Shown here in pieces: positions 3,148 to 56,340 of a DNA stretch of 64,000 nucleotides. The DNA is from Candidatus Woesearchaeota archaeon (GTDB lineage: Archaea; Nanobdellota; Nanobdellia; Woesearchaeales; JAWBMQ01), in the NCBI GenBank assembly GCA_038828875.1, contig JAWBMQ010000002.1:25314-89313 (forward strand), read 5' to 3'. The notes under the pieces are model-generated. The model worked only from the letters and a program-made list of their open reading frames with translations, did no database searches and was not told the origin of the DNA. Both the position numbers and the translations under genes were made by a program. The stretch's first letter is position 1. Every line of letters begins with the position of its first letter.

Positions 3148-3678
3148 ATGGTAAAAAAGGCACAACAATATATTACTTTATTCATTGCAATACTTTTAAT
3201 ATTTTTTTTAATTTTTGGTACAGGAGTAATAATTTCATCATTATCTTTACAAGGAGAAAAAATTACATTATTAATCAATAGTGATTTGGAATCTATTTAT
3301 GCAATAATAGATACACCACTTTATTTATCTTTGAACGATATATCTGATAGTAAGATATATTATAAAGATATTGCTTTAGTAAATTTGCTTAGTGTTTCTT
3401 ATCAAAATAGTATAGATTCTTTACAATATATATTTGAAAAGTATAATTCAACATTTAAGCAAGTTTTCAACGATCTTGTTTGTATAGAGCAATATGAATT
3501 AGATTCAGATGGAAAAAAATCAAATATTGTAATGTATAATGAATGTAAAAAATCAAAAGATTCAGTTTTATTGACTTTTGGCAAGTATAATTTTAAGATA
3601 TCAATCCAGAAAGAATCCGATCAAAAGTTTATAATGAATGAAGCTTTAGAATATTTGAAAAATGTACAGCAAAATTAA
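3148..3678 (+). CDS. Small pilin-like membrane protein (KKAQ followed by a hydrophobic helix)
   Basis: The N-terminus MVKKAQ/QYITLFIAILLIFFLIFG resembles an archaeal prepilin (class III) signal. It sits immediately upstream of the giant protein gene and overlaps it by 17 bp. Confidence 0.4.
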   Translation: MVKKAQQYITLFIAILLIFFLIFGTGVIISSLSLQGEKITLLINSDLESIYAIIDTPLYLSLNDISDSKIYYKDIALVNLLSVSYQNSIDSLQYIFEKYNSTFKQVFNDLVCIEQYELDSDGKKSNIVMYNECKKSKDSVLLTFGKYNFKISIQKESDQKFIMNEALEYLKNVQQN

Positions 3679-6600
3679 GAAAAAATTATTTAGAAATAAA
3701 AAAGGAGTTAATCCTTTTGATGTAGTTTTAGTACTTACATTAACTTCAACAATTATATTTTCATCTATGTTTTTAATATATAGAAAATCCTCACCATCAA
3801 TGATACAGGATTTGGTAAATTCTATATATTCTTATAGAGAATCAGTAAATAGAGATATGTTAAATAATTATCAAGATTCTTTGGTTGATGAAATGTTACC
3901 TTGGGAAGTAGTTTTATCAATTTATGAAAGAGACGGAGAAGGAAAAAAATACAGTAATGATTTGCAACAAAAGATAAGTGCTTCTTTTTATGATGATATG
4001 GTAGGATATTTTTTTGTTATGAACAATATTGATGAAAGTTTCTTAATTGATAAAGTTAGAATTTTATTGCAAGATAAAATTGGATACATTCAAGATATAA
4101 AATATGATTTTTACAATGATAAAATTAAGATTTTTTCATATATTAACAAGGAAGAAGCTTTGAAGGCATCAGCACAAGCATATCGTTTAGAATTATCAAA
4201 AAGTAAAGAATTTCTGTTACAAATTGCTAAAAACGACTGGTCAGATAATTGTCTTTATCTTTTTTTAAATTATTCTGAAAATAAATTGACTTTACCTAAT
4301 GCAATAATATCAGATGATGTTGTACCATTTTACTTGACTTATTTAGCTTCTGATATAAGGTGCACTCCTTTTTGTAGAAGTGGATTCTATAATTTTGAGA
4401 TTTCTGGAATTTCATGTGGTAGTAATAAATTATTCAATAGAGATGGAATTGAAGAAGAAGTTTCTTCAGATATACAAAATACAATTATTACTACTATTGA
4501 TAATTTAAAGCAAGTCTTGACTTTTGTCGATAAGTTGCCATTCGATGCAGAAAATAAATTAAAATTAGTTGCATATCTTATTAAATATCATCCTAACAAA
4601 AAAATAGTTTCTTCTTTATCAACTTTAGATTTGAAAGATCCTAAAAGTTTAGAAGATGCAATCTTAACAATATGTACTAAAGATTTAATAGAGAAGGATT
4701 TTTGTTATTCACGATTGAATAAACTTGAAAAAGATTATAATACCTTTAAATATGATTTTGGTTTAACTAAAAATTACGTTTTTGAAAAAAGCGAAATTTC
4801 TAAAGTTAAAGATGAACGGTTATTAGAATGGACTTATCTTTCTAAACCGTTTCCAATTAAAGAAGTTTCAAAATTATATGTTAATTTTACAGAGATATTT
4901 AAAAAATACGATTTAGGTATAATGATTCTTCCAGATAAAAGAAACCTTACAAATATTACAGAATACTTAAATAATTATTATAACGAAAAAAATGAAACAT
5001 TCAATAAAGTTTTTTTCAATTCTTTGTGGGGATTTAATTTTTCGATTTCTAAAGAGAAATCTAACGATACTGTTGTTTTTGAAGAGTTAGTTGGAGTTAG
5101 TTTTCTTTATTCATTATATTTAAATTCTTTAGCCTTAAAAGATTGTGATATAAATTATGATTTCTTCGATCTAAAGAAAAATGTAGGAACAGATAAATAC
5201 AAATACGATAATTTAATTTTTAATTTAGAAACATTTACAGATAGTGAAAAAACGATTGTTGATAATATTACTCTTGAAATAAAATTAACTGATGGAACAA
5301 AAAAATCATACAAAATAAGTTTTTCCCAGATTAGAGCACTTAATAATGTTTCAATTACTAAAGATACTAGTGTTGATAAATTAAAATTATGTACTGAATT
5401 AACATTTTATTATGTGGTTCCTTTTAGCACTTTCGGTGAATTGATTCCAAAAAAATTAGAATATTCAGTTATTGAATCGGATTTAGAAAAAAAATGGAGA
5501 TTATCAAACTATGAGTATAATTTTTTGTTAGTTATTGAAGGAGAAAAAATTTCACAACATATTTTGAAAGATATAAAGGAAGTAACAATAGATAAATGTG
5601 TAAAATTTCAACCATATAATAATGATGCAATTTTGATTGATTTTTCTGAAAATGATGAAAATTGTCAAAACTTGAAGAATGAAATTATTAGCAATAAAGA
5701 TCAATGGGAAATTTCATGTATAAATGGATTAACTAATGATTTTCTTGCAGAATCAACATATATTCCATTAAAAGAAGGTGATTCAAGAGAAAGTAAGTTT
5801 AGAAATCTTAGAGCTAAAGCAAGAACCTCTTATAAATTAGCCGATATTTTAGTTCAGGATTCATATAGTGGAGAGTATTTCTTCTTTGCAGAGATGGTAA
5901 TTTGTTCAGATGATGATTATCCTATTTTTGATAATTCTCTTACAAGTAGAACAATAACTAAAGAAAAATTAGCAAATATTAAGTTGAGAAATTTGAACAA
6001 GAATTATGATGGATATACTTTTATTGTTAATGACATTTTTCAAGAGAAGTTTGCTTTTATAGAATATTACAATCATAAAGATGATGAACCGCCAATGCTT
6101 GCAAAAATTGAAAAATCTTCTGGTATGTATACTATTACTTTTCTAACTGATTTAGATGTTTCTTTAAGAGATGGAGTTTGTTGGTTTTCAAAATCAAATA
6201 CTAATTATTATGAAATCAAAAATTTGAAAGTTTTTGTAAATAAAGATGTTGAAAAATATAATAAAATTTCTTTTGAAACTAATTATTCAAATATTTCAAA
6301 ATACAATTCTCCTTCAATCAGTTATCATACAGAAAATCAAATAAAATTAACTTTTGATATTAATTTTAGTTTTAATTTTACATCTGTAAGTTTGAAAAGA
6401 GCAAATATTTATAATGATATTTTATCAGCATTTATAATGAAAGACATTTGGAATATTACAGTAAGTGCGTTTCCATCTTTATCTTCTGCTTTTGCTTCTG
6501 CTCTTGCTTCAGCTTCTGATTTTTTCAATTGTTCCTTGAAAAATATTAAATTAGATTTAGATCCATATTACATGATTTACATAGCTGAAGGGTTGTTAAA

Positions 6601-9600
6601 CTGTGAATTAGTTTTGGAAGATGAATCTCATGATTTTATAAGTTATGATAAGGAGATTTCTGATTTATTAAATAATAACGAATTTATACTTTATGTTGAT
6701 CAAATGTTGGATGAAAAAAATACGGCGAAAGTTGAATGTTTATCATCTGTAGTTGGAAGTTATACGACAGGTGGTTCTACTTTAGTAGAAGATTGTGGAA
6801 TTGATTATTTTCAAGCTAGTAAAAATTCTATTGAAAAAGGTGATAGTGTAGATTTGAGTTATGGTTTAAAAGCGAATCGTGAATGTTTTTATCATCTAAG
6901 ATGTACTAACGGCTTAATTGACAAACCTATAAAATTAGCTCAACCGTTTGATAGTGATTTTTCTAATACGGATCCTGTTGTATTTGATGATATTGGAACT
7001 TATGAGTGTAAGCTAACTGTTGAACGAGATGGTGCTGAAGTTGCCTCACAAAGTCATATTATAGAGGTATTTGAAAAGTGTCAAGCAGAAATAATTAGTT
7101 TTGAAATAACGCCTTTAGTAGCAAAAAAAAGAGAAAATATTGATTTTAGCTTTGAAGTTAATCTATGTCCAAATAATTTTGTTAATTTATATTGTGTTAA
7201 TAAGGATTCTGGAAGTAAGATCCCTTTTGTTTCAAATAATATCGATTTGATTTACAAGCAAAAAAATTATTTTAATGAAATTGGTAAATATGATTGTAAT
7301 TTGGAAATAACGAGAAATTCAGTAGTAGAAATCTCAGATTCTAAGCAAATAGAAATTTTTGATGTTTCCGCTTTAGTTTCAACACCATCTGCAACTCCCA
7401 CAACATCTTGCACAGCTAAAATAAATTCTTTTGAATCTTCAAAAACTACGCTTAAACTTTCTGAATCTGTTGATTTAAGTTGGGATGCAACAATTTGTTC
7501 AGGTGATGAATTACTTCTTGAATGTAATGATGAAAATGGTATTCAGGAATTAAATTCTAAGGTAAATTCTATTGGTAAAAGAACATTTAATCCAAGTAAA
7601 GAAGGAACATACATTTGTAAGTTAAGCATTTTAAAGAGTTCTGGAGGAGTTGTTAGTAGATCATTATCTTTGAATGTAATGTGTGAAAGAAAAATCAACG
7701 ATTTCTTTGCTTCTCCTATAGAAGTATGTAAAGATGGAGACGTTTCATTATCATGGGATGTTAAGATTTGTAAAAATGAAAAAGTTAATCTTTATTGTAG
7801 TGTTGATAAAACAAACTATGATGTTACTTCTTTAGTTAGTAAAACCTATACTGTTAGTGATATAAATAATCATTTATGTACCCTTTCAATTCTAGATGAT
7901 TCAGGAAATGTTTTAGTATTCATGAACACTAATTTTAAATCACTTTCTTGTGTAGTACCTACATCAACAACCTCTTGTACTCCTAAAATTAATGAATTCA
8001 AATCTTCAAAGAGTAAAATTGAAATTATTAATTTAGCAAATAATGAGAAATTCACATTATCTTGGAATGCAAATTTATGCGGTAATGAAGAGCTTAATTT
8101 AGTTTGTAATCCAGGATCTATTAATCAAAAAGGTTTGTCAGCAAGTGGAACTTATAATGTAGTTGCAAATTTAGATGAAACCTATAGTTGCGAGTTGAAA
8201 TTAATTGATAAATCTGATGGTTCTATTATTGATGCCAAAGATGTTAAGGTTGAAGTTATTGATAAAAGAATAACATTCACATTAAATACTAATAAAATTG
8301 AATATTCAAGTACTGTGAAAGCAACATGGACGGCACCTGCAAAAGCTAAATCAGTTAAATTAATTTTAGATTATGATTCTTTGACTGATATTGAAGAGAA
8401 ATTATCTACTTCAGGAAGTAAAGATTATCAATTAAAAGATTTAGTAAAATTTATTTATATTGTAGAGTTTAGAGATGGTAGTTCAAAAAATATAGAATTG
8501 CCTGTATGTGTTTTACCAAAAGCTAGTTTATCTGTACAGCCGATTGGGTGTAAAAAATACAAAGTTGATTTAATTTTAGAGCATAATGAGAGATTTTTAA
8601 AAAATCAAATTAAAGATGTATCCATTTCTGATAAATCCGGATTAAGTGGAAGTTATTCATCTAATAAAATGAGTTATTCAACACAATTAGAAAACAAAGC
8701 ATCTGATTTAAATGATAAAGTAATAATTATGTTTAATAATTTTTGTAATACTCAAGAGGTTACATATAGATATCCACCAATGACTATTCCTTCATTTACA
8801 TTTTCTGGAAGTGTTCAACATAATGAATTTTTAGTTGAAGATTGTAATAAGAACACTTTTATACAAAAATATACTACAAAAATTACAGGTAATAATTTTT
8901 TGAATTATTTTGATAAATTTAGCTTACGTAGTATCACATCAGGAAATGAGTTTATTAAGGATTTATCTTTCAATGAATTTAACTCTAAAACAACTTATGT
9001 TTCAGGAGATATTGAAATAAATTTTGATAAAAGTGGAAATAAATTAGAAATTATTAGAAAGAATGTTCAAGCACCATGTGGATCTTTAGAATCTCCTGTA
9101 ACGCACCTTTTAACTCTTACAGATTGTAATGGTAAAAATTATGAAGTTTATTTTGAATTTACTTTTAAAAAGAAAGGAACAACAGTTTCGTCAACTTCAC
9201 CTAGTTCTTCAAAATCATGCAAAATTGATTCTTTTACAGTAACTCCATCTAAATTAGATTTAGCTAAAATTAAAAAATTTACAATAAGTTATAGTCTTTC
9301 AAATTCAATTGAAAATAAATTATATGTAAAAGGTCCAAAAGATACAGTATTTCAAGATAAGAGTGGGATATTAACACAAAAAGAATTAGTTCCAACTCAA
9401 TTAGGTAAATATATTTTTAATTTAACTTGCAAAGGAAATGATGGAATTATTAATAGTAAAGTTGTTGAAGCAGAGGTTGTAGAATCTTGTTATATAGATA
9501 AATTTACACTTTCATCAGAAAAAGTAAGTATAGGACAATCTGTTAAAATAACTGCTAATTTTAGGAATTCACAACTAAGAAAACTTTTAATAAATCGAAT

Positions 9601-11611
9601 TCAACCAAAGCAAGAAAAAATAGTGGATGAAACAATAACTAAGGAAAATCATGAATATACTTGGAATAATATAAAAGAATTAGGAACTTATAATATTACA
9701 ATTCAATGTAATTCATCATCATCTAATGAAATTGTTCAACAATCAAAAATCGTGGAAGTTTCAAGTCCTTGTGAATCTACTACATTTAGTGTGGATAAAA
9801 CTAATTTACTTGTTGGTGAAAATGTTAAAATTACTTATTCAGTATCAAACGGCGCAAAACTAAATATTTCGATTACATCATCAAAAACGACGATACCAGA
9901 GCAATCATTTACGTCTTCAGGATCAACCAGTCATAAATTTGATAATGAAGGAATTTATAAAATAATAGGAAAATGTTTTGAAGGTGATGTTTTAAAAATT
10001 AAAAAGGAGATAGAGATTAATGTTATCAAACCTAAAACTACAAAAGAATGCAAGCCAGTAACTGAATTTAAGATAGATTCTAAAAAAATTAATAATAATC
10101 TAATTTTAAAGGATTTTAATCAAAATTTACAGTTAGACAAATTTTCTTATGAATTTGAGATTTCATTTAATGGGAAAGTTTCTAGTGAAGATCAACGCAT
10201 AGTTTACGAAGAACCTAAAAAATTAAATTTAGTTTTTTCTATTGATACGAAGAAAGGTAGAAAGGAATTTACTTTTTCAATTTCTGATACTTCTAAAAGT
10301 TCACAAGATTATTTTTTAATAAGTAATTATGGTGACGTAAAGAAAGAGAATGTCAATGATTTGTTGAATAAAATTATTGAGGATCCTCTTAATAATAAAT
10401 TTGGCTTCCCTAATGAAAATAACGATGATTTTTATCTGATTAGTTTATTTTTTACTTATGATCCTACTAACAAAATAATAAAAGTAAAATTAAATTATTA
10501 TTTCAAAATATTTTTTTACCAGCCCAGATTGAAAAGGTTGAAAAATAATCCAGGTACCCCTTTTTATTTGATTCCAACAGGGCTAGCTTTAAACTTTGAC
10601 AATAGCCTAATTTTTAACATAGACAAAATTTGTGAAAATTCAAACAGAAAGGTTCAGATAAAATTAAATGTTTATGACAAGGTATTTTCACAAATCTTTA
10701 ATAAGATTAATGATGCACGTGAAAAATTGTATAATTTGTTAAATAATAAGAAAGTTGGTTTTATTACTAGTGATAGATCATTAATTGGAAACAAAGATTA
10801 TATCTTCAAATATGATGGATTCTATGATCCATTGTTCAAAAATCAACAATTCTTTCCTTATTTAAGTATTATTAAGTATTATTTTTTTGATACTAACAAA
10901 GGTACATCCTATATTCTTATTTGTCTTTCTAGAGAGAGCGAACTTTATTGTGCTAAACCAATTACTTATGGTGAATTAGAACATATTCTAGAAAAAAATA
11001 GCAAAACTTTAGTATTTCTTGATACTATTGATTCTTCGTTTGCAAAATTGTATAGTTCTACATTCGGATATGTTTATTTTAAAGATTATACCGCTCGAGG
11101 GTATTGGTTTTTATCATTTATTCCACAAGTAGTGTTAGTAAATGCTAAAATGAATATTATTGATGATATCCTCTTAGACGAGGGATCAAGTGGAGCAGTA
11201 CGGATACAATATTCTTCAGGAGTACACTATAGTGCATTTAAAGAACGTTTTTTAAATGAAATAAAAAGTCCAAATTCATATACTGAAAATATTGTTAATG
11301 TTGAAAATGTTGCTAAAATTATAAAATTTAAATCTAGAGATTATGTTATTGGTAAGGTAAAATATAATGAAATAATGGAATATTATGAAGAATATTTACT
11401 AAATTTTAAAAATATAGCTTCTTTTGATTTCATTTTTTCTAATTATTTTTTATCATCATTTGAGACAACTTCTTTATTCTACGGAGAACGAAGAGGAGTT
11501 ATGATTATTTATCCTTATAATCATGCTAATAGAAAATACATGGTTAAAAAATATCTAAATACGAAAAGTGATAATTCAAAGGAATTAGTTTCAATAACTA
11601 CAATTCAATAA
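3662..11611 (+). CDS. Giant (2649 aa) cell-surface repeat protein, putative adhesin
   Basis: Uninterrupted 7.9-kb ORF. The N-terminus is basic, then KKG, then a hydrophobic helix (VNPFDVVLVLTLTSTIIF), which looks like a class-III-type signal or anchor. The central region has at least six repeated ~90-aa modules, each with a Cys pair and a Trp (e.g. C..KIN.F.SS...L.LSW.A..C...L.L.C), typical of Ig-like or adhesin domains. There is also an S/A-rich linker. Confidence 0.7.
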   Translation: MYSKIKKKLFRNKKGVNPFDVVLVLTLTSTIIFSSMFLIYRKSSPSMIQDLVNSIYSYRESVNRDMLNNYQDSLVDEMLPWEVVLSIYERDGEGKKYSNDLQQKISASFYDDMVGYFFVMNNIDESFLIDKVRILLQDKIGYIQDIKYDFYNDKIKIFSYINKEEALKASAQAYRLELSKSKEFLLQIAKNDWSDNCLYLFLNYSENKLTLPNAIISDDVVPFYLTYLASDIRCTPFCRSGFYNFEISGISCGSNKLFNRDGIEEEVSSDIQNTIITTIDNLKQVLTFVDKLPFDAENKLKLVAYLIKYHPNKKIVSSLSTLDLKDPKSLEDAILTICTKDLIEKDFCYSRLNKLEKDYNTFKYDFGLTKNYVFEKSEISKVKDERLLEWTYLSKPFPIKEVSKLYVNFTEIFKKYDLGIMILPDKRNLTNITEYLNNYYNEKNETFNKVFFNSLWGFNFSISKEKSNDTVVFEELVGVSFLYSLYLNSLALKDCDINYDFFDLKKNVGTDKYKYDNLIFNLETFTDSEKTIVDNITLEIKLTDGTKKSYKISFSQIRALNNVSITKDTSVDKLKLCTELTFYYVVPFSTFGELIPKKLEYSVIESDLEKKWRLSNYEYNFLLVIEGEKISQHILKDIKEVTIDKCVKFQPYNNDAILIDFSENDENCQNLKNEIISNKDQWEISCINGLTNDFLAESTYIPLKEGDSRESKFRNLRAKARTSYKLADILVQDSYSGEYFFFAEMVICSDDDYPIFDNSLTSRTITKEKLANIKLRNLNKNYDGYTFIVNDIFQEKFAFIEYYNHKDDEPPMLAKIEKSSGMYTITFLTDLDVSLRDGVCWFSKSNTNYYEIKNLKVFVNKDVEKYNKISFETNYSNISKYNSPSISYHTENQIKLTFDINFSFNFTSVSLKRANIYNDILSAFIMKDIWNITVSAFPSLSSAFASALASASDFFNCSLKNIKLDLDPYYMIYIAEGLLNCELVLEDESHDFISYDKEISDLLNNNEFILYVDQMLDEKNTAKVECLSSVVGSYTTGGSTLVEDCGIDYFQASKNSIEKGDSVDLSYGLKANRECFYHLRCTNGLIDKPIKLAQPFDSDFSNTDPVVFDDIGTYECKLTVERDGAEVASQSHIIEVFEKCQAEIISFEITPLVAKKRENIDFSFEVNLCPNNFVNLYCVNKDSGSKIPFVSNNIDLIYKQKNYFNEIGKYDCNLEITRNSVVEISDSKQIEIFDVSALVSTPSATPTTSCTAKINSFESSKTTLKLSESVDLSWDATICSGDELLLECNDENGIQELNSKVNSIGKRTFNPSKEGTYICKLSILKSSGGVVSRSLSLNVMCERKINDFFASPIEVCKDGDVSLSWDVKICKNEKVNLYCSVDKTNYDVTSLVSKTYTVSDINNHLCTLSILDDSGNVLVFMNTNFKSLSCVVPTSTTSCTPKINEFKSSKSKIEIINLANNEKFTLSWNANLCGNEELNLVCNPGSINQKGLSASGTYNVVANLDETYSCELKLIDKSDGSIIDAKDVKVEVIDKRITFTLNTNKIEYSSTVKATWTAPAKAKSVKLILDYDSLTDIEEKLSTSGSKDYQLKDLVKFIYIVEFRDGSSKNIELPVCVLPKASLSVQPIGCKKYKVDLILEHNERFLKNQIKDVSISDKSGLSGSYSSNKMSYSTQLENKASDLNDKVIIMFNNFCNTQEVTYRYPPMTIPSFTFSGSVQHNEFLVEDCNKNTFIQKYTTKITGNNFLNYFDKFSLRSITSGNEFIKDLSFNEFNSKTTYVSGDIEINFDKSGNKLEIIRKNVQAPCGSLESPVTHLLTLTDCNGKNYEVYFEFTFKKKGTTVSSTSPSSSKSCKIDSFTVTPSKLDLAKIKKFTISYSLSNSIENKLYVKGPKDTVFQDKSGILTQKELVPTQLGKYIFNLTCKGNDGIINSKVVEAEVVESCYIDKFTLSSEKVSIGQSVKITANFRNSQLRKLLINRIQPKQEKIVDETITKENHEYTWNNIKELGTYNITIQCNSSSSNEIVQQSKIVEVSSPCESTTFSVDKTNLLVGENVKITYSVSNGAKLNISITSSKTTIPEQSFTSSGSTSHKFDNEGIYKIIGKCFEGDVLKIKKEIEINVIKPKTTKECKPVTEFKIDSKKINNNLILKDFNQNLQLDKFSYEFEISFNGKVSSEDQRIVYEEPKKLNLVFSIDTKKGRKEFTFSISDTSKSSQDYFLISNYGDVKKENVNDLLNKIIEDPLNNKFGFPNENNDDFYLISLFFTYDPTNKIIKVKLNYYFKIFFYQPRLKRLKNNPGTPFYLIPTGLALNFDNSLIFNIDKICENSNRKVQIKLNVYDKVFSQIFNKINDAREKLYNLLNNKKVGFITSDRSLIGNKDYIFKYDGFYDPLFKNQQFFPYLSIIKYYFFDTNKGTSYILICLSRESELYCAKPITYGELEHILEKNSKTLVFLDTIDSSFAKLYSSTFGYVYFKDYTARGYWFLSFIPQVVLVNAKMNIIDDILLDEGSSGAVRIQYSSGVHYSAFKERFLNEIKSPNSYTENIVNVENVAKIIKFKSRDYVIGKVKYNEIMEYYEEYLLNFKNIASFDFIFSNYFLSSFETTSLFYGERRGVMIIYPYNHANRKYMVKKYLNTKSDNSKELVSITTIQ

Positions 11612-11653: not shown

Positions 11654-12946
11654 ATGATAGAACTCTTTAGAATTTCAAAGAAAGCTAAGTTTTTGTTTTT
11701 ATGCTTATTTTTTTCTTTAATGATTTCCGTTTCAGGAATTCAACAATTTCATCCTGCTTCAGAAATTGAACCAGGTACTTTTGGTACTGATTTGTATATT
11801 GGAAATTATTCTTTTCCTGATTCTTTAAGTGTTGCAAATAATCTTTACGTTGGTCAAAGAGTTGGTATTGGTGTTTCTAATCCAAGAGATGCTTTAGAGG
11901 TTGTTGGTAATTTAATAGTTTCTGGAGGAGATCGATACATAGGTTTAGTTGATAATTTTGCATTAGGAATAAGAACAAATAACATTGATAGAATTTATAT
12001 TACTAATTCTGGAAACGTAGGCATAGGAACAACAAGTCCTGGTTATAAGTTAGATATAAGTGGAACCTTAAGGAGTACCCAAGATGCATATTTAGCAACA
12101 AGTAGTGGTAATGTAGGCATAGGAACAACAAGTCCGAGTACAAAGTTACAAGTGGTAGGGGATATAGGATTAAGTGGTGCGGATAGATTTATAGGAACAA
12201 TAGATAATTATGCATTAAATTTAAGGACGAATAATGCTAATAGGGTAACAATAACTAATGCAGGAAATGTTGGTATAGGTACAACAAGTCCTGGTTATAA
12301 ATTAGATATAAGTGGAACAATAAGGAGTACAGATTCGACATATTTAGCTACATCCTCAGGGAATGTAGGTATAGGGAGTATAAGTGCAAGTTATAAATTA
12401 GATATAAGTGGAACATTAAGGAGTACTCAAGATGCATATTTAGCAACAAGTAGCGGTAATGTAGGCATAGGAACAACAAGTCCGAGTACAAAGTTACAGG
12501 TGGTAGGGGATATAGGATTAAGTGGTGCGGATAGATTTATAGGAACAATAGATAATTATGCATTAAATTTAAGGACGAATAATGCTAATAGGTTAACAAT
12601 AACTAATGCAGGAAATGTTGGTATAGGTACAACAAGTCCTGGTTATAAATTAGATATAAGTGGAACCTTAAGGAGTACAGATTCGACATATTTAGCTACA
12701 TCCTCAGGGAATGTAGGTATAGGGAGTACAAGTGCAAGTTACAAATTAGATATAAGTGGAACATTAAGGAGTACTCAAGATGCATATTTAGCAACAAGTA
12801 GTGGAAACGTAGGCATAGGAACAACAAATCCCCAAGCGAAGTTGCATGTAGAAGGTAAAATAAGGGTTAATAATGCAATTCAAGATTCAGGAGGTACAGA
12901 TAGAATAACATTCTCAGGAACTAATGTTATAATTACGATAGGATGA
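11654..12946 (+). CDS. Gly-rich fibre-like repeat protein with a Sec signal peptide (tail-fibre / trimeric-fibre-like repeats)
   Basis: Hydrophobic N-terminal signal. Eight copies of the motif SSGNVGIGTTSP(G/S)YKLD(I/V)SGT.RST, ending ...GNVGIGTTNPQAKLHVEG. This resembles the N.GIGTT.P.AKLHV repeats found in phage tail-fibre and fibre-domain proteins. Confidence 0.65.
   Translation: MIELFRISKKAKFLFLCLFFSLMISVSGIQQFHPASEIEPGTFGTDLYIGNYSFPDSLSVANNLYVGQRVGIGVSNPRDALEVVGNLIVSGGDRYIGLVDNFALGIRTNNIDRIYITNSGNVGIGTTSPGYKLDISGTLRSTQDAYLATSSGNVGIGTTSPSTKLQVVGDIGLSGADRFIGTIDNYALNLRTNNANRVTITNAGNVGIGTTSPGYKLDISGTIRSTDSTYLATSSGNVGIGSISASYKLDISGTLRSTQDAYLATSSGNVGIGTTSPSTKLQVVGDIGLSGADRFIGTIDNYALNLRTNNANRLTITNAGNVGIGTTSPGYKLDISGTLRSTDSTYLATSSGNVGIGSTSASYKLDISGTLRSTQDAYLATSSGNVGIGTTNPQAKLHVEGKIRVNNAIQDSGGTDRITFSGTNVIITIG
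12101..12840. repeat. Near-identical tandem direct repeat, 348-bp unit x ~2.1, within the coding sequence
   Basis: Copies starting at 12101, 12449 and 12797 are nearly base-identical (compare ...agtagtggtaatgtaggcataggaacaacaagtccgagtacaaagttaca...). A degenerate ~108-bp sub-repeat is also present from about 11990. Confidence 0.75.
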
Positions 12947-13013: not shown

Positions 13014-15089
13014 TCAATTTAACGGTAAACCGCTCCAAAATTTCCAATCTTCAGAAGGAATTAAGTAAAGGTTATGACCATATTCACCAACTCTATACTT
13101 ATGATAAACGTTATCCCAATTTACATCACTCCATGAAACTCCTGAATTTCCACGAACGTAAACTGCATTAGCAATATTTCTCCAAGCAGCAAACAATTGT
13201 TCATTAGGATCACTCCAACCTTCAGAATTGATAGGTCCTTTATAGCCAGATTCTACTAATTTCTTAACAATTTCTTTCAAAGGTAATTCTCCTTCACCAG
13301 GTGGAAGTTGAGAATGACCGCCAAGAGAATCGACTAAATGCACATTTCCAATAACTTTTTCATCAATCAGTTTTTGAACTTTTTCCTTGAACCATTCTAA
13401 GAAAAGTTCGTCTTTTTTATCAGGATTATTAGCTTTAAAATAATTTTTCCATAAAGCCATATGTTCAGTATCTAATGTCATTTTAATATGTTTTTCAGCT
13501 AATTCTTTAGCTTTGTTAACATCTTTAACATAAAAAGGATTCTTAATTTTTTTTCCATTTTCTTCAATTTCAGGACTTGTTAACATTTCGACCATTTTTT
13601 TCCTTGCTTCTTTTATTAAATATAAAATTTCATCAGGATGAGTTCCAAATCCTCTTCCAGCTTCCCAATTTTCAGGAGCAATGTAAATAGGTTTAGGTAA
13701 ATTGTTTTTTTGAGTATATTCTAAAGCTTTTAATCCCATTTTAGCTAAAGTTTCTATACTTTTGTTAATTGCTACATCTTCTAAAGCCTTTATTCTTTCT
13801 TTTCTAGCTTCAATTTCTTTAAGCTGTTCTTCATAGCTTATCATTGCTTCGTATCTTCTTTTAGCTTCAACTTGTAAAGTTTGTATATATTTTTCTACAG
13901 CATCAACTTTTTTAAGTTCATCTACAGGAACATTAAAGCCTGCAACGTGCAACATATCAACATGAGTTAATAAATATCTTTTCAAAGGTTCAGGTAATTC
14001 TTTATTATTTTGAATTATATCTTCTCTCTTTTTCAACTCTTCTTTGAATTGTTCTAATGCAATTATACTTTTCTTAATTTGCTCAAATTCTTTCATCATT
14101 TCTATTTTTCTAGATTCTGCTTCTTTTTCTTGTTTTTCCATAGAAAGTAATACTAATGATAGATGAGGTTTATCATAAAGTTCATTTACATCTTTAATTA
14201 CTCCTTTATTTTTCATCTCAATTGCATTACTTGCTATTTTAGCAGCAATAGCTTTTAATTTTTCATCCTTTATTTTTTCAATTTCTTTCAATTCTTTGCA
14301 ATTTTTCAACAATTCGCCTGCCTTTTTAAAATCTTCAAAAGATGCTAAATCTACTTTAATATTTCCATTTTCCCAAGGTTGCTTAAATCTTATTTCGTTT
14401 CCTTTAATTTCAAAACTTTCCAAAGCAATAGGAATTGTAGTTTTTTCAGAAATTCCGCTAATTTCACCTTTTTCAACATCTACAACGTAATAAGGTTTTT
14501 CGCTTGTAACTACAAAACTTCCGTATTTTTTTTCTTCTTCTTCATAAACATTTTTCAAAGCACTTATTCTTGGTTGTCCTGGTACTTCAGCTACGTGAAC
14601 AACAATAGCAACACCGTCACTTTTACTTTCTTGTTTTTTTGGCATAATGTCTGATGCAAATTTCATCACATGATCAACTTTATTCATAAACAAATTAATT
14701 CTATCTTCACTTATTTTTCCTCTTTCAGGATCTATTCCAGAAAGTCCTTCTACATAAGTAGGAACATGAACGCTATTAACTTCAACTCCAGTAGCAAATT
14801 GTAATTCTCTTAACTCCTGCCTTTTTAAATTTCCATATCCTTCTACTCCATAACCCATTGCTTGTTCATTTGTAGCTAATTCAACTTTAGTTGTACCTTT
14901 TCTAGAAGCTTGAGCTAATGTTTTTCTAAAATCTCCTCCAGCATTGGGTCCTTCTGTAATGGTCATACCTATTCTACCTGTGCTTATTATTGGTTGCTCA
15001 AGTTTTTTATCTATGGCTAATTGAGCATTCTTTTGCTTATCCATTAATTCCTTAAATTCTTTTTCCCATTCAGGTACATAGTAGCTCAT
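13014..15089 (-). CDS. Xylose-isomerase-like TIM-barrel (sugar phosphate isomerase/epimerase, AP-endonuclease-2 fold) protein interrupted by a ~250-aa coiled-coil insertion
   Basis: The N-terminal segment (NSVHVP..., HVAEVPG) and the C-terminal segment (LDTEHMA...; NVHLVDSLGGHSQLPPGEGELPLKEIVKKLVESGYKGPINSEGW) match conserved metal-binding strands of the XylA-like TIM barrel. The middle segment is K/E-rich heptad-like. Confidence 0.45.
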   Translation of the reverse strand: MSYYVPEWEKEFKELMDKQKNAQLAIDKKLEQPIISTGRIGMTITEGPNAGGDFRKTLAQASRKGTTKVELATNEQAMGYGVEGYGNLKRQELRELQFATGVEVNSVHVPTYVEGLSGIDPERGKISEDRINLFMNKVDHVMKFASDIMPKKQESKSDGVAIVVHVAEVPGQPRISALKNVYEEEEKKYGSFVVTSEKPYYVVDVEKGEISGISEKTTIPIALESFEIKGNEIRFKQPWENGNIKVDLASFEDFKKAGELLKNCKELKEIEKIKDEKLKAIAAKIASNAIEMKNKGVIKDVNELYDKPHLSLVLLSMEKQEKEAESRKIEMMKEFEQIKKSIIALEQFKEELKKREDIIQNNKELPEPLKRYLLTHVDMLHVAGFNVPVDELKKVDAVEKYIQTLQVEAKRRYEAMISYEEQLKEIEARKERIKALEDVAINKSIETLAKMGLKALEYTQKNNLPKPIYIAPENWEAGRGFGTHPDEILYLIKEARKKMVEMLTSPEIEENGKKIKNPFYVKDVNKAKELAEKHIKMTLDTEHMALWKNYFKANNPDKKDELFLEWFKEKVQKLIDEKVIGNVHLVDSLGGHSQLPPGEGELPLKEIVKKLVESGYKGPINSEGWSDPNEQLFAAWRNIANAVYVRGNSGVSWSDVNWDNVYHKYRVGEYGHNLYLIPSEDWKFWSGLPLN

Positions 15090-16052: not shown

Positions 16053-16934
16053 ATGAATCTTTATGGTTTACTTGAAAATTGTGCATTGTGTCCAAGAAAT
16101 TGCAAAGTGAATCGAAAAGAAGAAACAGGTTATTGTAAAATAGGTTATACCCCTAAAATAAGTTCAATTTATATTTCTGCTTCAGAAGAACCTGTTCTAT
16201 GTAATGAAATAGGTTCAGGTTTAATATATTTTTCAGGATGTCCTATGGATTGTATTTATTGTCATATGTCTGGATTTTCTAGAACCGGAAAAGGAAAAGA
16301 AATTACATTGGATGATCTTGTTGATTCAATGTTAAGAATTCAAGAAAAAGGAGCTAAAACACTAATGTTATTATCCGCAACCCAACATTTACCTTGGGTT
16401 CTTGAAGCTATAGATTTGGCAAAATCAAAAGGATTTTCATTACCAATAGTTTATAAAACATCAGGATATGAAAAAATAGATGTTTTAAAGATGATGAAAA
16501 ATTACATTGATATTTATTTACCTGATTTAAGATATTCTTCAAATGAAATAGGAGAAAAATATTCTCATGTGTCTAACTATTGGGATGTAGCAAGAGATGC
16601 AATAACTGAAATGTATAACCAAGTAGGTCCTTTTGATGAAAATAAGATGAAAGGATTGATCATAAGACTTTTACTTTTACCTTATGATTTGAATGGTACA
16701 GAACATGCATTTAAATTTGTTAAATCATTAAACGAAAAAATTCCAGTTTCAATAATGACTCAATACACACCATTATTTGAAGCAAGACGTGATGAATATC
16801 TTTCAAGGCCTCTTAATACCGAAGAAATTTTCAATGTAATTGTTTTAGCTGCAAGATATAATATTAATGGATGGATTCAGGGTGAAAAATTAAGTTTTGA
16901 AGAAGCAAGAAAAAGAATAATCCCTATTAAATAA
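16053..16934 (+). CDS. Radical SAM protein, PflX-like (COG1313; pyruvate-formate-lyase-activating-enzyme homolog)
   Basis: N-terminal CALCPRNCKVNR...GYC motif followed by the canonical CPMDCIYC (CxxxCxxC) cluster. Confidence 0.75.
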   Translation: MNLYGLLENCALCPRNCKVNRKEETGYCKIGYTPKISSIYISASEEPVLCNEIGSGLIYFSGCPMDCIYCHMSGFSRTGKGKEITLDDLVDSMLRIQEKGAKTLMLLSATQHLPWVLEAIDLAKSKGFSLPIVYKTSGYEKIDVLKMMKNYIDIYLPDLRYSSNEIGEKYSHVSNYWDVARDAITEMYNQVGPFDENKMKGLIIRLLLLPYDLNGTEHAFKFVKSLNEKIPVSIMTQYTPLFEARRDEYLSRPLNTEEIFNVIVLAARYNINGWIQGEKLSFEEARKRIIPIK

Positions 16935-27414: not shown

Positions 27415-28551
27415 ATGACAAAATATGTATCAGATTTAGATTTTGATTTTAGATTGTATCCGGTATTAGTTTATTTTTCTCCTTTAATACTTCCTAAAGA
27501 AGAATATGACAAATTAGGTCTAGAATTTCCAGATTCAGAATATCTAATTAATCAAAAATCATTGAGAAAGTCATTTAAACTTATGAAAAAAGAATTTAAT
27601 AAATCTTTTAAAAAAGATATTTCTGATATTGAAACATTATTTGAGAATTATTATTTTTCACTTAAAAACATAATTAATTTACCTCAAGAAATGTTATCTT
27701 TGTTAGGATATATTTATTATAAAGAGGAAGTGGAGCCAATAATTGAAGAACGAATGAAACGCTTTAATGAAAAAGTTGAATCTTATGTTTTTGATTATGA
27801 ACTATTGTCTAGAAAAAAAAGAAATGATGATTCTTTGGAGTTTATTGTTGATGAAACTAATCTAATGGAATTTATTGCATTATCAACTGATTTAAGTTTT
27901 CAAGAATTTTATTTAAATTTTTCAGAAAATGATGAAGAATCAAATTATTATTTAGCTTATTATTTGGAAGAAGAAAAAAATAAAAAAATCAAAGATATTC
28001 TTAAATATGATAACCTTGCTTATAGTTATCTTAAAAGAAAATATTTTGAATTAGCCAATATTTTAGATAAAATTGATGATGATTTCAATAAATTATATGA
28101 AAGAATGCTTTTCCTTTACAATGAGGGAGTTTCTTCTCTTAACAAAATAATGAAATTATTGCCATCTGCAGATCCTGATGCTAAAAAAATATTGAAAAAT
28201 CAATATAGTCATTTAGTTAAAATAATAGCAATAGAAGATGTTTTTTTAAAAAATTTAGAGGATAATTATTTTTCAATACAGATTAATAAAAATTATTTAA
28301 ATTCAGTCTATAATAAAATTAGATTGAATGATGATGTTTATTCAGAAATAAGTTCTTTTTTTCAATATCAAGGTTTAGCGATGTATATGTATGATTTAAT
28401 TGTTGAGTTAAATAAGAAACTTAGATGGGGAGAGAGGGATTTGAACCCTCGACACCACGGTCTTCAGCCGTGTGCTCTCCCAGCTGAGCTATCTCCCCAA
28501 AAATCTATTATTGATGATAAGCAATCATTTATAAATTTTTCGAAGAGGTGA
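27415..28551 (+). CDS. Hypothetical protein (block ORF 2); the 3' ~40 codons are the antisense translation of tRNA-Phe, so the true 3' end is uncertain
   Basis: ORF with no in-frame stop until 28551. The C-terminus ...GERDLNPRHHGLQPCALPAELSPQ is the tRNA read in antisense. Confidence 0.4.
   Translation: MTKYVSDLDFDFRLYPVLVYFSPLILPKEEYDKLGLEFPDSEYLINQKSLRKSFKLMKKEFNKSFKKDISDIETLFENYYFSLKNIINLPQEMLSLLGYIYYKEEVEPIIEERMKRFNEKVESYVFDYELLSRKKRNDDSLEFIVDETNLMEFIALSTDLSFQEFYLNFSENDEESNYYLAYYLEEEKNKKIKDILKYDNLAYSYLKRKYFELANILDKIDDDFNKLYERMLFLYNEGVSSLNKIMKLLPSADPDAKKILKNQYSHLVKIIAIEDVFLKNLEDNYFSIQINKNYLNSVYNKIRLNDDVYSEISSFFQYQGLAMYMYDLIVELNKKLRWGERDLNPRHHGLQPCALPAELSPQKSIIDDKQSFINFSKR
28426..28498 (-). 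tRNA. tRNA-Phe: tRNA-Phe (anticodon GAA), 73 nt, no intron, CCA not encoded
   Basis: Minus-strand sequence GGGGAGAtaGCTCagctgggaGAGCaCACGGctGAAgaCCGTGgtgtcGAGGGttcaaatCCCTCTCTCCCCa. It folds into a canonical cloverleaf with a 7-bp acceptor stem, D arm, 5-bp anticodon stem, GAA anticodon and T-psi-C arm GTTCAAATC. Confidence 0.9.
28528..28535 (-). promoter_or_regulatory. Putative TATA box (TTTATAAA), with a BRE-like CGAAAAA, about 30 nt upstream of the tRNA-Phe 5' end
   Basis: The minus-strand context is cgaaaaatttataaatgattgcttatcatcaataatagattttt|GGGG. Confidence 0.35.
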
Positions 28552-54140: not shown

Positions 54141-54974
54141 ATGGATTTATATGATTATTTAGATTTTGATAATAAGGAATTGCACAAGATGAATTATTCT
54201 AAGGAAGATTTACAAAAGATTTTAAATTTTCTTATAGATTTAGGAAGTTTATATGTTTTAGAAAACACAGAAGAAAAATTAAAAACATTAACTCCTTTTC
54301 CAGAAGAAGAAATAAAAAAAATATGGTTTTATAGAGCGATTCTTTACAGATTTAAGTCAAATGCATTCCATCTTTAAGAAAAGAGGAAGTTGAAAAGTTA
54401 CTAAAGAATTATGCAGATTTAGATTATTACTTAAAAAAGGAATATCCTATTAGAACTACACAAGGAGTTAGAAGAACTTTATACTAATTATTATAAAGAA
54501 TTAAAAAAACCAATAAATCCTGAACTTTACAAAGCTATAGAGAAAGAAATCAAGTCAATAGAAAAACTTATTATTACAGAAAAAGAAGAAGTAAGGCAAT
54601 TAGCAGAGAGTTATCTAGAAGAGTTTTTAAGATCATTTTACAGTTTAAATCTAAAGCCAGAAGATTTAGAAAAGATTACTAGTTTAAGTTATCTTAAAGA
54701 AGAGCTTAAGAATTATAGAATTCAAAGATTAAATACTAATTTTTTAGGATATATTAAGCTAGAAGCAATTCAAGAGATTACTGAAGAAGAGATTTTTATA
54801 ATTTCTAATTTAGATCCATTTAAATATCATGATTTTCAAGAAAATATCTGTAAAATTTTAGAAAAAGAGCCAATTCAACTTAAAGCTAAACTGCAATTTT
54901 ATTATAATGCAAAAGAAAATTATAAAAAACTTAAACATCAAAAGTCCACCAACGATTCCATTTCTTATATTTAA
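54141..54974 (+). pseudogene. Gene of ~277 codons disrupted by two compensating frameshifts (frame 0, then frame 2, then frame 0)
   Basis: Frame 0 is open over 54141-54377. Frame 2 is open over 54356-54487 (…IPSLRKEEVEKLLKNYADLDYYLKKEYPIRTTQGVRRTLY). Frame 0 is open again, without any ATG, over 54435-54974, i.e. 180 stop-free codons in ~25-30% GC DNA. Confidence 0.45.
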
Positions 54975-56340
54975 TGTAAATATCAGTCAAATCACTAACT
55001 ATCTTTTTCTTATCAACTTCTTTTTTAGATTCAGATTTTTTCTCTTCGCTAGGTTCAGGTAAAAATAAAGTAAACAATTCAATAAGTCCTTCAGCCAATG
55101 CTTTCAATGGTTCAAAGAGATCTCCAAAAGAATCATTTTTAGCAGAAGATTCCTTTTTCTCTTCTTTCTTAGTTTCTTCCTTTTTAACTCCTTCAGCTTC
55201 TTTTAAATATTTTTCAAAATCATCGCCTAAGTTTTTCAAAGTTTCTCTAATGCTATTGTCAATATCAGCAATCAAACTTAAACCTTCTTCTTCACGCATT
55301 TTTTTATAATTTTCAATCTCTTCTTTGCTCCAAACATAGCCACGTAAAGTAATTTCTAAAGTGCCGAGATGAATAGGATATCTTTGATATTCTTGACCTG
55401 TCATCATCAAAGGAGCAGTTCTAAAAAACATATTTACAAGAACACAATCGTACTTTGAGCTATCTCCTGAATTCTTTCTTTTAGCTAGAAATTCAATTTC
55501 AGTTACATTAGCATCAAAGCTATTAACAATGTAAACAGAGTTCATGTACTTTTCATGCAAATTTAAATAACGCACATTAGTTAAGTAAGGTTTTAACCAA
55601 TGAGAATACATTTTTAAAGAATTATAGTTTTGAACCATCATTTTTAAAAGAACATTTCTTCTTACACTTAATTCATGTTCAATTTCTTTTGCCCATCTTA
55701 GAAAGCTCATCAATTTCCTTTTTAAAACGCTTTTCAGAGGTAAAGAAACATCATAAGCATCAACAATAGTATCAATTTCCTTTTCATCTTGAACAAAGGT
55801 TCTAAAGAAAAGATCAGGCAAAGCACTGTATCCTGCTTGTTGAGCTAAAACAAATAAACCCATTTCTGTTTTAGAAGCATTATCGACATTATCAGCCCAG
55901 ATTCCTTTTAAAGCTACATCTGCAGCTTGACTTTTTTCTTTCCAAGCTTTAAAGTAGCCTAATCTTTCATCAATTTTCCTTAATTCTTGAACTTGTTTCA
56001 ATATGTCAATGCTTAACTTACCAATAGCTGCAAGAATTCCGCTGATTCTATCTTGTTGACTAGCTAATCTTTGCATAGCATTTCCAAAAAATCCAGACAT
56101 AGTTGATGAAGAGTAAACATCAGTAATTTTTTCAAACTCTTCAAACCTTTTAATTCTTTCAAGAAAATTCACAAAAAAATAGTAATGATTTTCTAAAGTA
56201 GCTTTAGGAGAAGAATAAATAATTTTAAAGTACTTTAAAGGCTTCGGATATCCTGTAACAATACCATTTACAGGATCTTTTTCGACTTCTTTAAAATTAT
56301 ATTTTTTCAAAAGATCTTCATTGTTCTTTGGAACTATCAT
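54931..56340 (-). CDS. Hypothetical 469-aa protein
   Basis: ORF with a K/E-rich C-terminal tail. Confidence 0.5.
   Translation of the reverse strand: MIVPKNNEDLLKKYNFKEVEKDPVNGIVTGYPKPLKYFKIIYSSPKATLENHYYFFVNFLERIKRFEEFEKITDVYSSSTMSGFFGNAMQRLASQQDRISGILAAIGKLSIDILKQVQELRKIDERLGYFKAWKEKSQAADVALKGIWADNVDNASKTEMGLFVLAQQAGYSALPDLFFRTFVQDEKEIDTIVDAYDVSLPLKSVLKRKLMSFLRWAKEIEHELSVRRNVLLKMMVQNYNSLKMYSHWLKPYLTNVRYLNLHEKYMNSVYIVNSFDANVTEIEFLAKRKNSGDSSKYDCVLVNMFFRTAPLMMTGQEYQRYPIHLGTLEITLRGYVWSKEEIENYKKMREEEGLSLIADIDNSIRETLKNLGDDFEKYLKEAEGVKKEETKKEEKKESSAKNDSFGDLFEPLKALAEGLIELFTLFLPEPSEEKKSESKKEVDKKKIVSDLTDIYIKYKKWNRWWTFDV

What the first reader, a model, noticed from the sequence alone, without database searches (positions are those of the whole stretch)
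13014..15089. Xylose-isomerase-like TIM barrel split by a ~250-aa coiled-coil insertion
The N-terminal ~180 aa and C-terminal ~200 aa carry the conserved metal-ligand strands of the sugar-phosphate isomerase/epimerase (AP endonuclease 2) barrel: NSVHVP; EH; HLVDSLGGH...GEGELPLKEIVKKLVESGYKGPINSE. The intervening segment (~aa 230-470) is a K/E-rich heptad-like coiled coil. A catalytic barrel with a long coiled-coil stalk is an unusual architecture, possibly a scaffolded or filament-associated enzyme.
Basis: partly seen in the sequence, partly recalled or inferred. Interest (0 to 1): 0.5.

Follow-up and report, generated by a model that had tools for sequence, protein, structure and literature searches.

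The report
Stalked metal-enzyme barrel of Woesearchaeota
This gene encodes a metal-binding TIM-barrel enzyme whose barrel is interrupted by a roughly 260-residue module of unknown fold family; the architecture is real, fixed across hundreds of tiny DPANN archaea and usually co-transcribed with two other unknown proteins, but its substrate is unknown.

Summary

The architecture is not a one-off. An exhaustive search gave 432 cluster representatives at E<=1e-30, and the best 150 are essentially all 560-770 aa.

The conserved site is richer than the E-D-H-E of sugar epimerases. The family consensus fills all nine ligand positions of the endonuclease IV/MJ1311 trinuclear centre; the window protein has H592/Q594 at the third site.

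In 52 of 67 informative genomes the gene follows, on the same strand, a ~480-aa unknown protein and usually a ~190-aa coiled-coil protein. In this window that partner lies 40 kb away.

Best reading: an uncharacterised multinuclear-metal enzyme, probably a phosphoesterase, with a lid-and-stalk insert. It is a new variant of a known fold, of moderate interest.

The parts
13014..15089 (-). Whole gene: 691-aa TIM-barrel protein with an insert (the end coordinate includes the stop codon)
   Evidence: ORF list. An identical protein is annotated 'TIM barrel protein', Candidatus Woesearchaeota.
14976..15089 (-). N-terminal extension, aa 1-38; predicted helix 7-30 at low confidence
   Evidence: AF2 DSSP and pLDDT. 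Low conservation, 1.08 bits.
14577..14975 (-). First barrel half, aa 39-171: beta1 40-45, beta2 68-72, beta3 103-108 (H108), beta4 160-166 (H165), then invariant E168
13788..14576 (-). Insert in the beta4-alpha4 loop, aa 172-434 (family range 190-306 aa, median 246)
   Evidence: AF2 secondary structure, insert lengths. No Pfam or PDB sequence relative. No structural match in Foldseek.
14340..14495 (-). Beta subdomain of the insert, aa 199-250: six predicted strands, conserved V203-D204 and G208
   Evidence: 1.59 bits, occupancy 0.91.
14007..14168 (-). Long helix 1 of the insert, aa 308-361 (54 residues)
   Evidence: AF2 DSSP, pLDDT about 90. Hydrophobic period about 3.45-3.5, weak signal.
13788..13907 (-). 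Long helix 2 of the insert, aa 395-434
   Evidence: AF2 DSSP, pLDDT above 90. Hydrophobic period about 3.55, weak signal.
13170..13787 (-). Second barrel half, aa 435-640: alpha4 436-461, beta5 468-474 (E473), YG(S/T)HPxE motif (H484), beta6 537-540 (D540, H543), beta7 580-585 (H584, D587), loop H592/Q594, beta8 620-623 (E623)
13017..13169 (-). Conserved C-terminal tail, aa 641-691 (motif IPSxDWxxWSGxPL, W685); modelled at low confidence
   Evidence: pLDDT below 50, but 1.85 bits mean conservation.
54931..56340 (-). 469-aa homolog of the 'cluster 1' protein, which in most other genomes lies two genes upstream of the TIM-insert gene; here it is unlinked, 40 kb away
   Evidence: tblastn E 1e-75 to 1e-82, HMM E 8e-157, neighbourhood statistics.

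Best explanation
The gene encodes one polypeptide that folds into a single xylose-isomerase-like (PF01261) TIM barrel of the MJ1311/endonuclease IV type. A family-specific module of about 260 residues is spliced into the beta4-alpha4 loop.

Beta-to-alpha loops lie on the catalytic face of TIM barrels. The module therefore rises from the active-site side, directly after the invariant E168. Its conserved beta subdomain most likely acts as a lid or substrate-recognition element over the metal centre. Its two long helices most likely form a projecting hairpin used for dimerisation or for docking partner proteins.

The metal centre is predicted to hold two or three divalent ions. Site 1 would use H108, H165 and E473. 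Site 2 would use E473, D540, H584 and E623. Site 3 would use H543, H592 and, in most relatives, H594. Such a centre most likely catalyses hydrolysis of a phosphoester, with a nucleic-acid (RNA or DNA end) substrate favoured over a free sugar.

The protein belongs to a large family found so far only in Woesearchaeota/Nanoarchaeota. There it is normally co-transcribed with a ~480-aa protein and a ~190-aa coiled-coil protein, both of unknown function, and probably works with them.

Shown: the gene, the single barrel in the model, the position and make-up of the insert, the residue conservation, the family size and the operon. Inferred: the metal number, the chemistry, the substrate, the lid and stalk roles, and complex formation.
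For: Fold:
- AF2 model: pTM 0.77, mean pLDDT 78.5.
- PF01261 hit above the gathering score.
- A profile of the family with the insert removed finds MJ1311 at E 2.2e-7, sharing the motif H-x-H-x-x-D-N-x-G-Y-x-D-E-H-L-x-x-G-x-G.

Active site, in 134 diverse members:
- E168, E473, D540, H543 and E623 are invariant.
- H108, H165 and H584 are present in 116 of 134.
- D587 in 131, H484 in 129, H at position 594 in 122, D or H at position 592 in 133.
- A weak HMM alignment places H584, position 592, position 594 and E623 on endonuclease IV H216, D229, H231 and E261.

The insert is a fixed feature:
- 432 representatives at E<=1e-30. The top 150 are 560-773 aa apart from four N-terminally truncated fragments.
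- Insert length is 190-306 aa in all 134 aligned members.

Operon:
- Cluster 1 lies upstream on the same strand in 52 of 67 loci that have at least 3 kb of upstream sequence.
- The gap from cluster 2 to the TIM gene is -23 to +3 nt in 16 loci.
- A YhbY/CRM RNA-binding gene, a small DOT1-like methyltransferase and a Pol-beta-type nucleotidyltransferase are frequent direct neighbours.
Against: - Nothing here is biochemical.
- The window protein has Q594 where 122 of 134 relatives have His, so its third metal site may be degenerate.
- The DNA-intercalating Tyr of endonuclease IV has no conserved counterpart; position 112 is G, S, N or Q.
- The profile alignment to E. coli endonuclease IV is not significant.
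- The model rests on only nine sequences. I could not inspect coordinates, so the position of the insert over the active site follows from barrel topology, not from measured distances.
- In this window the gene stands alone, not in the operon.
- The RNA-related flavour of the neighbours is only moderately frequent: 18 of 56 loci for YhbY.
Confidence: 0.5

Rival explanations
1. It is what the databases call it: a sugar or sugar-phosphate isomerase/epimerase using a single Mn/Co ion bound by E473, D540, H584 and E623. The insert would serve only as an oligomerisation arm.
Against: Additional residues at endonuclease IV metal sites 1 and 3 are conserved: H108, H165, H543, D/H592 and H594. Epimerases do not need these. 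No sugar kinase, transporter or other carbohydrate gene sits in the conserved neighbourhood. Epimerase matches cover only about 55-65 C-terminal residues.
Confidence: 0.2
2. It is the AP endonuclease / 3'-repair diesterase (a functional endonuclease IV) of Woesearchaeota, with the insert acting as a DNA clamp.
Against: No NCBIfam or Pfam endonuclease IV-specific hit. No significant profile match to E. coli Nfo. The intercalating Tyr is not conserved. The window protein lacks the H231-equivalent. Neighbouring genes are not repair genes. From my own memory of the MJ1311 structure paper, which was not held in the library, MJ1311 lacks a DNA-binding groove.
Confidence: 0.15
3. The barrel is catalytically inert, and the protein is mainly a structural coiled-coil component of a cytoskeletal or envelope scaffold.
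For: Long helices in the insert. A co-operonic coiled-coil protein and a helix-rich partner. A conserved, unstructured-looking C-terminal tail typical of docking motifs.
Against: Five putative ligand or catalytic residues are invariant across 134 sequences at about 28% pairwise identity, and the barrel is the best conserved part at 2.1-2.2 bits against 0.6-1.6 in the insert. That is the pattern of an active enzyme.
Confidence: 0.1
4. The long ORF is an artefact: a gene fusion, an assembly chimera, or two genes joined by a sequencing error.
For: None beyond the unusual length for this fold.
Against: Hundreds of independent full-length homologs come from different assemblies and sources. The barrel would be incomplete without both halves.
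Confidence: 0.01

Closest known systems
MJ1311 of Methanocaldococcus jannaschii (PDB 3WQO, 'D-tagatose 3-epimerase-like protein'; function unknown)
   Different: MJ1311 is a compact barrel of about 290 aa with no insert. The window protein has 263 extra residues in the beta4-alpha4 loop, an N-terminal extension and a conserved 50-aa tail. It reads GGHSQL where MJ1311 reads DDEHL.
Endonuclease IV (Nfo; e.g. 1QTW, 2X7W)
   Different: No significant sequence match. The DNA-recognition Tyr is not conserved. The window protein has His and Gln at the D229 and H231 positions. Nfo has no insert.
D-tagatose / D-psicose 3-epimerases and related ketose epimerases (2OU4, 4XSL, 8XIV, YcjR 6WN6)
   Same: Same fold and the same E-D-H-E metal site. 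The local motif xLPPGEGxLP...GYxGxI..E matches at E about 2e-4.
   Different: Epimerases bind one metal and lack the conserved His pair on beta3 and beta4 and the D/H-x-H loop. They have no insert. Their genomic context is carbohydrate metabolism, which is absent here.

Membership tests
Xylose isomerase-like TIM barrel superfamily (Pfam PF01261, AP_endonuc_2) | Match to the family HMM above the curated threshold | tested here: met
   47.4 bits against a cut-off of 31.1, but only profile positions 146-237 of 249. N-terminal halves of 5 of 9 relatives also match, best E 1.3e-4.
Xylose isomerase-like TIM barrel superfamily (Pfam PF01261, AP_endonuc_2) | A complete (beta/alpha)8 barrel formed by the chain | tested here: met
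Xylose isomerase-like TIM barrel superfamily (Pfam PF01261, AP_endonuc_2) | Glu, Asp, His and Glu metal ligands at the ends of beta5, beta6, beta7 and beta8 | tested here: met
   E473, D540 and E623 are invariant; H584 is present in 116 of 134 members and in the window protein.
Endonuclease IV (Nfo) | Nine ligands of the trinuclear zinc centre (H69, H109, E145, D179, H182, H216, D229, H231, E261) | tested here: inconclusive
   The family consensus fills all nine positions. The window protein has H592 for D229 and Q594 for H231. The equivalences rest on strand order and a non-significant HMM alignment.
Endonuclease IV (Nfo) | Sequence-level membership (nfo HMMs) and DNA-recognition loop residues such as the intercalating Tyr after the beta3 His | tested here: not met
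   No endonuclease IV model among the NCBIfam or Pfam hits. hhalign probability 0.5%. Position 112 is variable: G, S, N or Q.
Endonuclease IV (Nfo) | AP-endonuclease / 3'-diesterase activity | not testable with these tools
   Needs biochemistry.
Ketose 3-epimerases (DTEase/DPEase) | Full-length similarity to characterised epimerases and their single-metal site | tested here: inconclusive
   Only aa ~589-642 align, E 0.007-0.02 for the single sequence and about 2e-4 for the profile. NCBIfam epimerase models score 18 bits against a cut-off of 305.
MJ1311-like archaeal barrels | Closest relative by both sequence and fold, with shared beta7-loop motif | tested here: met
MJ1311-like archaeal barrels | Compact single-domain architecture of about 290 aa | tested here: not met
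   691 aa with a 263-aa insert. All 134 aligned relatives have inserts of 190-306 aa.
Coiled-coil proteins | Long helices with heptad (about 3.5-residue) hydrophobic periodicity that pair with each other or with a partner | tested here: inconclusive
   Helices of 54 and 38 residues at high pLDDT. The periodicity maxima at 3.45-3.55 have low power. Pairing and oligomeric state could not be examined because no coordinates or multimer model were available.

The most novel reading that the evidence does not exclude
The TIM-insert protein, the ~480-aa 'cluster 1' protein (a KA1-like alpha+beta core with very long helices) and the ~190-aa coiled-coil 'cluster 2' protein together form a previously unrecognised three-protein machine found so far only in Woesearchaeota/Nanoarchaeota. 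In it, a multinuclear-metal nuclease or phosphoesterase is held on helical stalks and acts on RNA or DNA, for example in ribosome or tRNA maturation or in end repair. That would fill a function that these reduced genomes seem to lack.
Probability: 0.2. Interest if true: 0.65.

Novelty: new variant of a known kind. Interest (0 to 1): 0.45.

Why it matters
DPANN archaea have very small genomes, so a 600-700-aa protein kept in hundreds of Woesearchaeota lineages, with invariant catalytic residues, is likely to do something important. Yet it is annotated only as 'TIM barrel protein', 'sugar phosphate isomerase/epimerase' or 'hypothetical protein'.

Three results turn a vague annotation into testable questions:
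- The barrel carries an endonuclease IV/MJ1311-type multi-metal site.
- A conserved lid-and-stalk module is inserted on the catalytic face.
- The gene travels with two other unknown proteins.

The questions are which metal, which phosphoester substrate and which complex. It is also a clear example of how a long loop insertion hides half of a common fold from routine domain annotation.

Tried and rejected
- **Domain scans of the whole protein.** Pfam and NCBIfam find only the C-terminal part of the barrel. An N-terminal-half profile against PDB sequences found nothing.
- **Comparison with E. coli Nfo.** hhalign and hmmsearch of the de-inserted family against it gave no significant alignment.
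- **Phage or defence origin.** PHROGs gave no hit. PADLOC gave only a weak sub-threshold match (E 0.007, 14 bits, no stretch passing on its own), which I treat as noise. Neither library gave a convincing hit for the cluster 1 or cluster 2 proteins. Rejected.
- **The insert alone.** A profile against PDB sequences and a Pfam scan of 12 members gave only noise.
- **Foldseek against PDB.** No hit at E<=0.001, because the insert breaks sequential alignment. The top hits are still the same barrels, and nothing matches the insert.
- **Library limits.** The afdb50 library was not available.
- **Locus search.** The search for related loci with the broad alignments failed for lack of a conserved stretch. 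A tighter 12-sequence alignment worked.
- **Partner cluster 2.** No Pfam or PDB relative.
- **Rest of the operon in this window.** HMMs for clusters 2, 3, 4, 5, 6 and 12 found nothing in the 64 kb.
- **Literature.** No paper describes this family. MJ1311 appears only in a table of predicted EndoIV homologs. The MJ1311 structure paper is not held.
- **Canonical nfo in the window.** None found, but 64 kb says nothing about the whole genome.

Full report
**1. The observation**

Window 13014-15089 (-) is a 691-aa ATG-initiated ORF in a genome of about 25% GC. An identical protein is deposited as 'TIM barrel protein' from a Candidatus Woesearchaeota MAG. Full-length homologs of 48-64% identity and more distant ones of 26-31% were found at once. 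The central region is K/E-rich: aa 251-470 are 16.8% K and 15.0% E. The gene is real and the description is accurate.

**2. One barrel, not two things**

- Pfam PF01261 matches aa 528-631 at 47.4 bits against a gathering score of 31.1, but this covers only the last third of the profile.
- The window protein's N-terminal 180 residues give no hit alone. The equivalent segments of 5 of 9 relatives do hit PF01261, best E 1.3e-4.
- An AlphaFold2 model built on a nine-sequence alignment reached pTM 0.77 and mean pLDDT 78.5.
- Foldseek aligns sequentially and is disrupted by the insert, so it gives no hit at E<=0.001. It still ranks the same family first.

**3. Anatomy**

| Element | Residues | Key residues |
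|---|---|---|
| beta1 | 40-45 | |
| beta2 | 68-72 | |
| beta3 | 103-108 | H108 |
| beta4 | 160-166 | H165, then E168 |
| Insert | ~172-434 | see below |
| alpha4 | 436-461 | |
| beta5 | 468-474 | E473 |
| beta6 | 537-540 | D540, H543 |
| beta7 | 580-585 | H584, D587 |
| Loop after beta7 | | H592, Q594 |
| beta8 | 620-623 | E623 |
| alpha8 | 628-640 | |
| C-terminal tail | 641-691 | W685 |

The insert contains helix 176-189, six short strands between 200 and 250, several helices between 251 and 305, a 54-residue helix (308-361), a poorly modelled loop, and a 38-residue helix (395-432).

The tail is modelled poorly but is well conserved, at 1.85 bits.

The interruption therefore lies in the beta4-alpha4 loop and spans about 263 residues. 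It is a composite module, not a pure coiled coil. Segment 251-307 is occupied in only 41% of relatives, so it is a sub-insertion of the window's own clade. The beta subdomain and both long helices are present throughout the family, with occupancy 0.91-1.0. The two long helices show a hydrophobic period of about 3.45-3.55, but the signal is weak. I had no access to coordinates and could not verify that they pair.

The insert has no relative in Pfam or among PDB sequences.

**4. The active site**

In an alignment of 134 diverse family members (about 28% identity to the query):

- Invariant: E168, E473, D540, H543 and E623.
- Near-invariant: H484 (129 of 134), D587 (131), H at position 594 (122), D or H at position 592 (133), and H108, H165 and H584 (116 each).

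E473, D540, H584 and E623 form the universal Glu-Asp-His-Glu site of the superfamily. The additional His on beta3 and beta4, the His three residues after the beta6 Asp, and the D/H-x-H loop after beta7 occupy the positions of H69, H109, H182, D229 and H231 of E. coli endonuclease IV. That mapping rests on strand order and on a weak, non-significant HMM alignment that pairs H584, position 592, position 594 and E623 with H216, D229, H231 and E261.

MJ1311 is the closest solved relative by sequence (E 2.2e-7). It shows the same beta3 and beta4 His and the motif HVHAHDNNGYDDEHLKIGEG. It was listed as the predicted EndoIV homolog of M. jannaschii (PMC2770678). From my own memory of its structure paper, which the library does not hold, MJ1311 keeps the nine endonuclease IV ligands but lacks a DNA groove, and residues just after beta4 of the neighbouring subunit cover its metal site. 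That is the loop that carries the insert here.

Two variations deserve note:
- The window protein and its close relatives read H592/Q594 instead of D/H-x-H.
- Eighteen members show the correlated changes H108E, V163D, H165(W/V/L) and H584Q.

The DNA-intercalating Tyr of endonuclease IV is not conserved.

**5. Size and distribution of the family**

An exhaustive profile search of 1.84 billion representatives gave 966 hits at E<=0.001 and 432 at E<=1e-30. The best 150 (E<=1e-129) are 560-773 aa, apart from four N-terminally truncated fragments, and match the profile end to end. All 134 aligned members have an insert of 190-306 residues, median 246.

Only 966 proteins are hit, although PF01261 proteins are, from general knowledge, very numerous. 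The family therefore appears to be a discrete island within the superfamily.

A scan of species-representative genomes with two family peptides returned 93 loci. Nearly all are titled Woesearchaeota, Nanoarchaeota, Nanoarchaeia or Nanobdellota. Many carry a generic 'uncultured Methanosarcinales' label, and one, titled 'Aminicenantes', looks mis-binned. Source names are 'hypothetical protein' or 'sugar phosphate isomerase/epimerase'. No paper describing the family was found.

**6. Genomic context**

I clustered the ORFs of 85 loci. The recurrent co-directional array is:

Kef-type antiporter > YhbY/CRM > cluster 1 (~480 aa) > cluster 2 (~190 aa, K/E-rich coiled coil) > TIM-insert > small DOT1-like methyltransferase > Pol-beta-type nucleotidyltransferase (Pfam assignments).

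- Cluster 1 lies upstream on the same strand in 52 of 67 loci with at least 3 kb of upstream sequence.
- The usual 500-730-nt gap between cluster 1 and the TIM gene is filled by the small coiled-coil gene.
- The cluster 2 stop and the TIM start overlap or nearly abut (-23 to +3 nt) in 16 loci, which suggests translational coupling.
- YhbY directly precedes cluster 1 in about 15 of 56 loci. The methyltransferase or the nucleotidyltransferase directly follows the TIM gene in about 14 and 13 loci respectively.

In this window the gene is monocistronic, flanked by a convergent and a divergent gene. A cluster 1 homolog (469 aa) is nevertheless present at 54931-56340 (-), HMM E 8e-157. The other array members are absent from the 64 kb.

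**7. The partners**

**8. Mechanism and rivals**

Beta-to-alpha loops form the catalytic face of TIM barrels (established knowledge). The insert must therefore emerge beside the metal site, immediately after the invariant E168 and the near-invariant R171 position.

- **Favoured reading (0.5).** A multinuclear-metal enzyme, probably a phosphoesterase. The conserved beta subdomain shapes or gates the substrate site, and the long helices dimerise or dock the operon partners. A nucleic-acid substrate is favoured because of the endonuclease IV-like ligand set and the RNA-flavoured neighbours.
- **Sugar epimerase with an oligomerisation arm (0.2).** It explains the best named sequence hits. It does not explain the extra conserved ligands or the context.
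- **True AP endonuclease (0.15).** It fits the ligands. It lacks the DNA-recognition residues and any repair context.
- **Inert structural protein (0.1).** The barrel is the most conserved part of the protein, which contradicts this.
- **Assembly or fusion artefact.** Excluded.

**9. Verdict**

The protein belongs to the PF01261 superfamily and is closest to MJ1311. It is not demonstrably an endonuclease IV or a ketose epimerase.

The novelty lies in three things: the conserved lid-and-stalk module inserted on the catalytic face, the discrete family found so far only in Woesearchaeota, and the three-gene module of unknowns. It is a new variant of a known kind, of moderate interest.

Main limits: no biochemistry, a model built on a shallow alignment, no coordinate-level inspection, and no multimer prediction.

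Noticed in passing
window 54931-56340 (-) and 56318-56902 (-): A 469-aa protein of a large family found in Woesearchaeota, with no Pfam or PDB sequence relative. Its model shows a KA1-like alpha+beta core plus 50- and 66-residue helices. In most genomes it lies two genes upstream of the TIM-insert gene. Here it is preceded by an overlapping 194-aa ORF with a P/Q-rich N-terminus and predicted coiled coil; that ORF is not detectably related to the usual cluster 2 protein.
   Followed up: partly
window 11654-12946 (+): A 430-aa protein made of tandem 'GNVGIGTTSPxYKLDISGTLRST'-type repeats. It matches phage tail-fibre PHROGs (E 2.8e-36). It lies directly downstream of a 2649-aa giant ORF at 3662-11611 (+), which may be a surface or adhesion protein.
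   Followed up: no
alignment A5 (family of the target), positions 108/163/165/584 in window-protein numbering: Eighteen of 134 family members carry the fully correlated substitutions H108E, V163D, H165(W/V/L) and H584Q while keeping E168, E473, D540, H543, H592, H594 and E623. This suggests a subclade with a remodelled metal site.
   Followed up: partly
window 13308-13316 (aa 592-594 of the target): The window protein and five relatives (P0002-4, P0042, P0064) have Gln at position 594, where 122 of 134 members have His. The third metal site may be weakened in this subclade.
   Followed up: partly
L031 (JAFCCF010000009.1): A contig titled 'Candidatus Aminicenantes bacterium' carries the archaeal cluster 1 - cluster 2 - TIM-insert array, so it is probably a mis-binned Woesearchaeota contig. 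Many records titled 'uncultured Methanosarcinales archaeon' likewise look like generic labels.
   Followed up: no
window 28424-28499 (-): The only tRNA in the window (tRNA-Phe, GAA) lies inside the mechanical ORF 27415-28551 (+). That ORF's 3' end is therefore probably over-called.
   Followed up: no
window 16053-16934 (+): A 293-aa radical SAM protein (PF04055, E 2e-10) lies one gene beyond the divergent 291-aa helical neighbour of the target. It is not part of the conserved array in other genomes.
   Followed up: no
L020 10070-10618 and 10687-11487; L020 5765-6046: A small DOT1-like class I methyltransferase and a Pol-beta-type nucleotidyltransferase frequently follow the TIM-insert gene directly. 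A YhbY/CRM RNA-binding protein often directly precedes cluster 1. This gives the extended neighbourhood an RNA-related flavour.
   Followed up: partly
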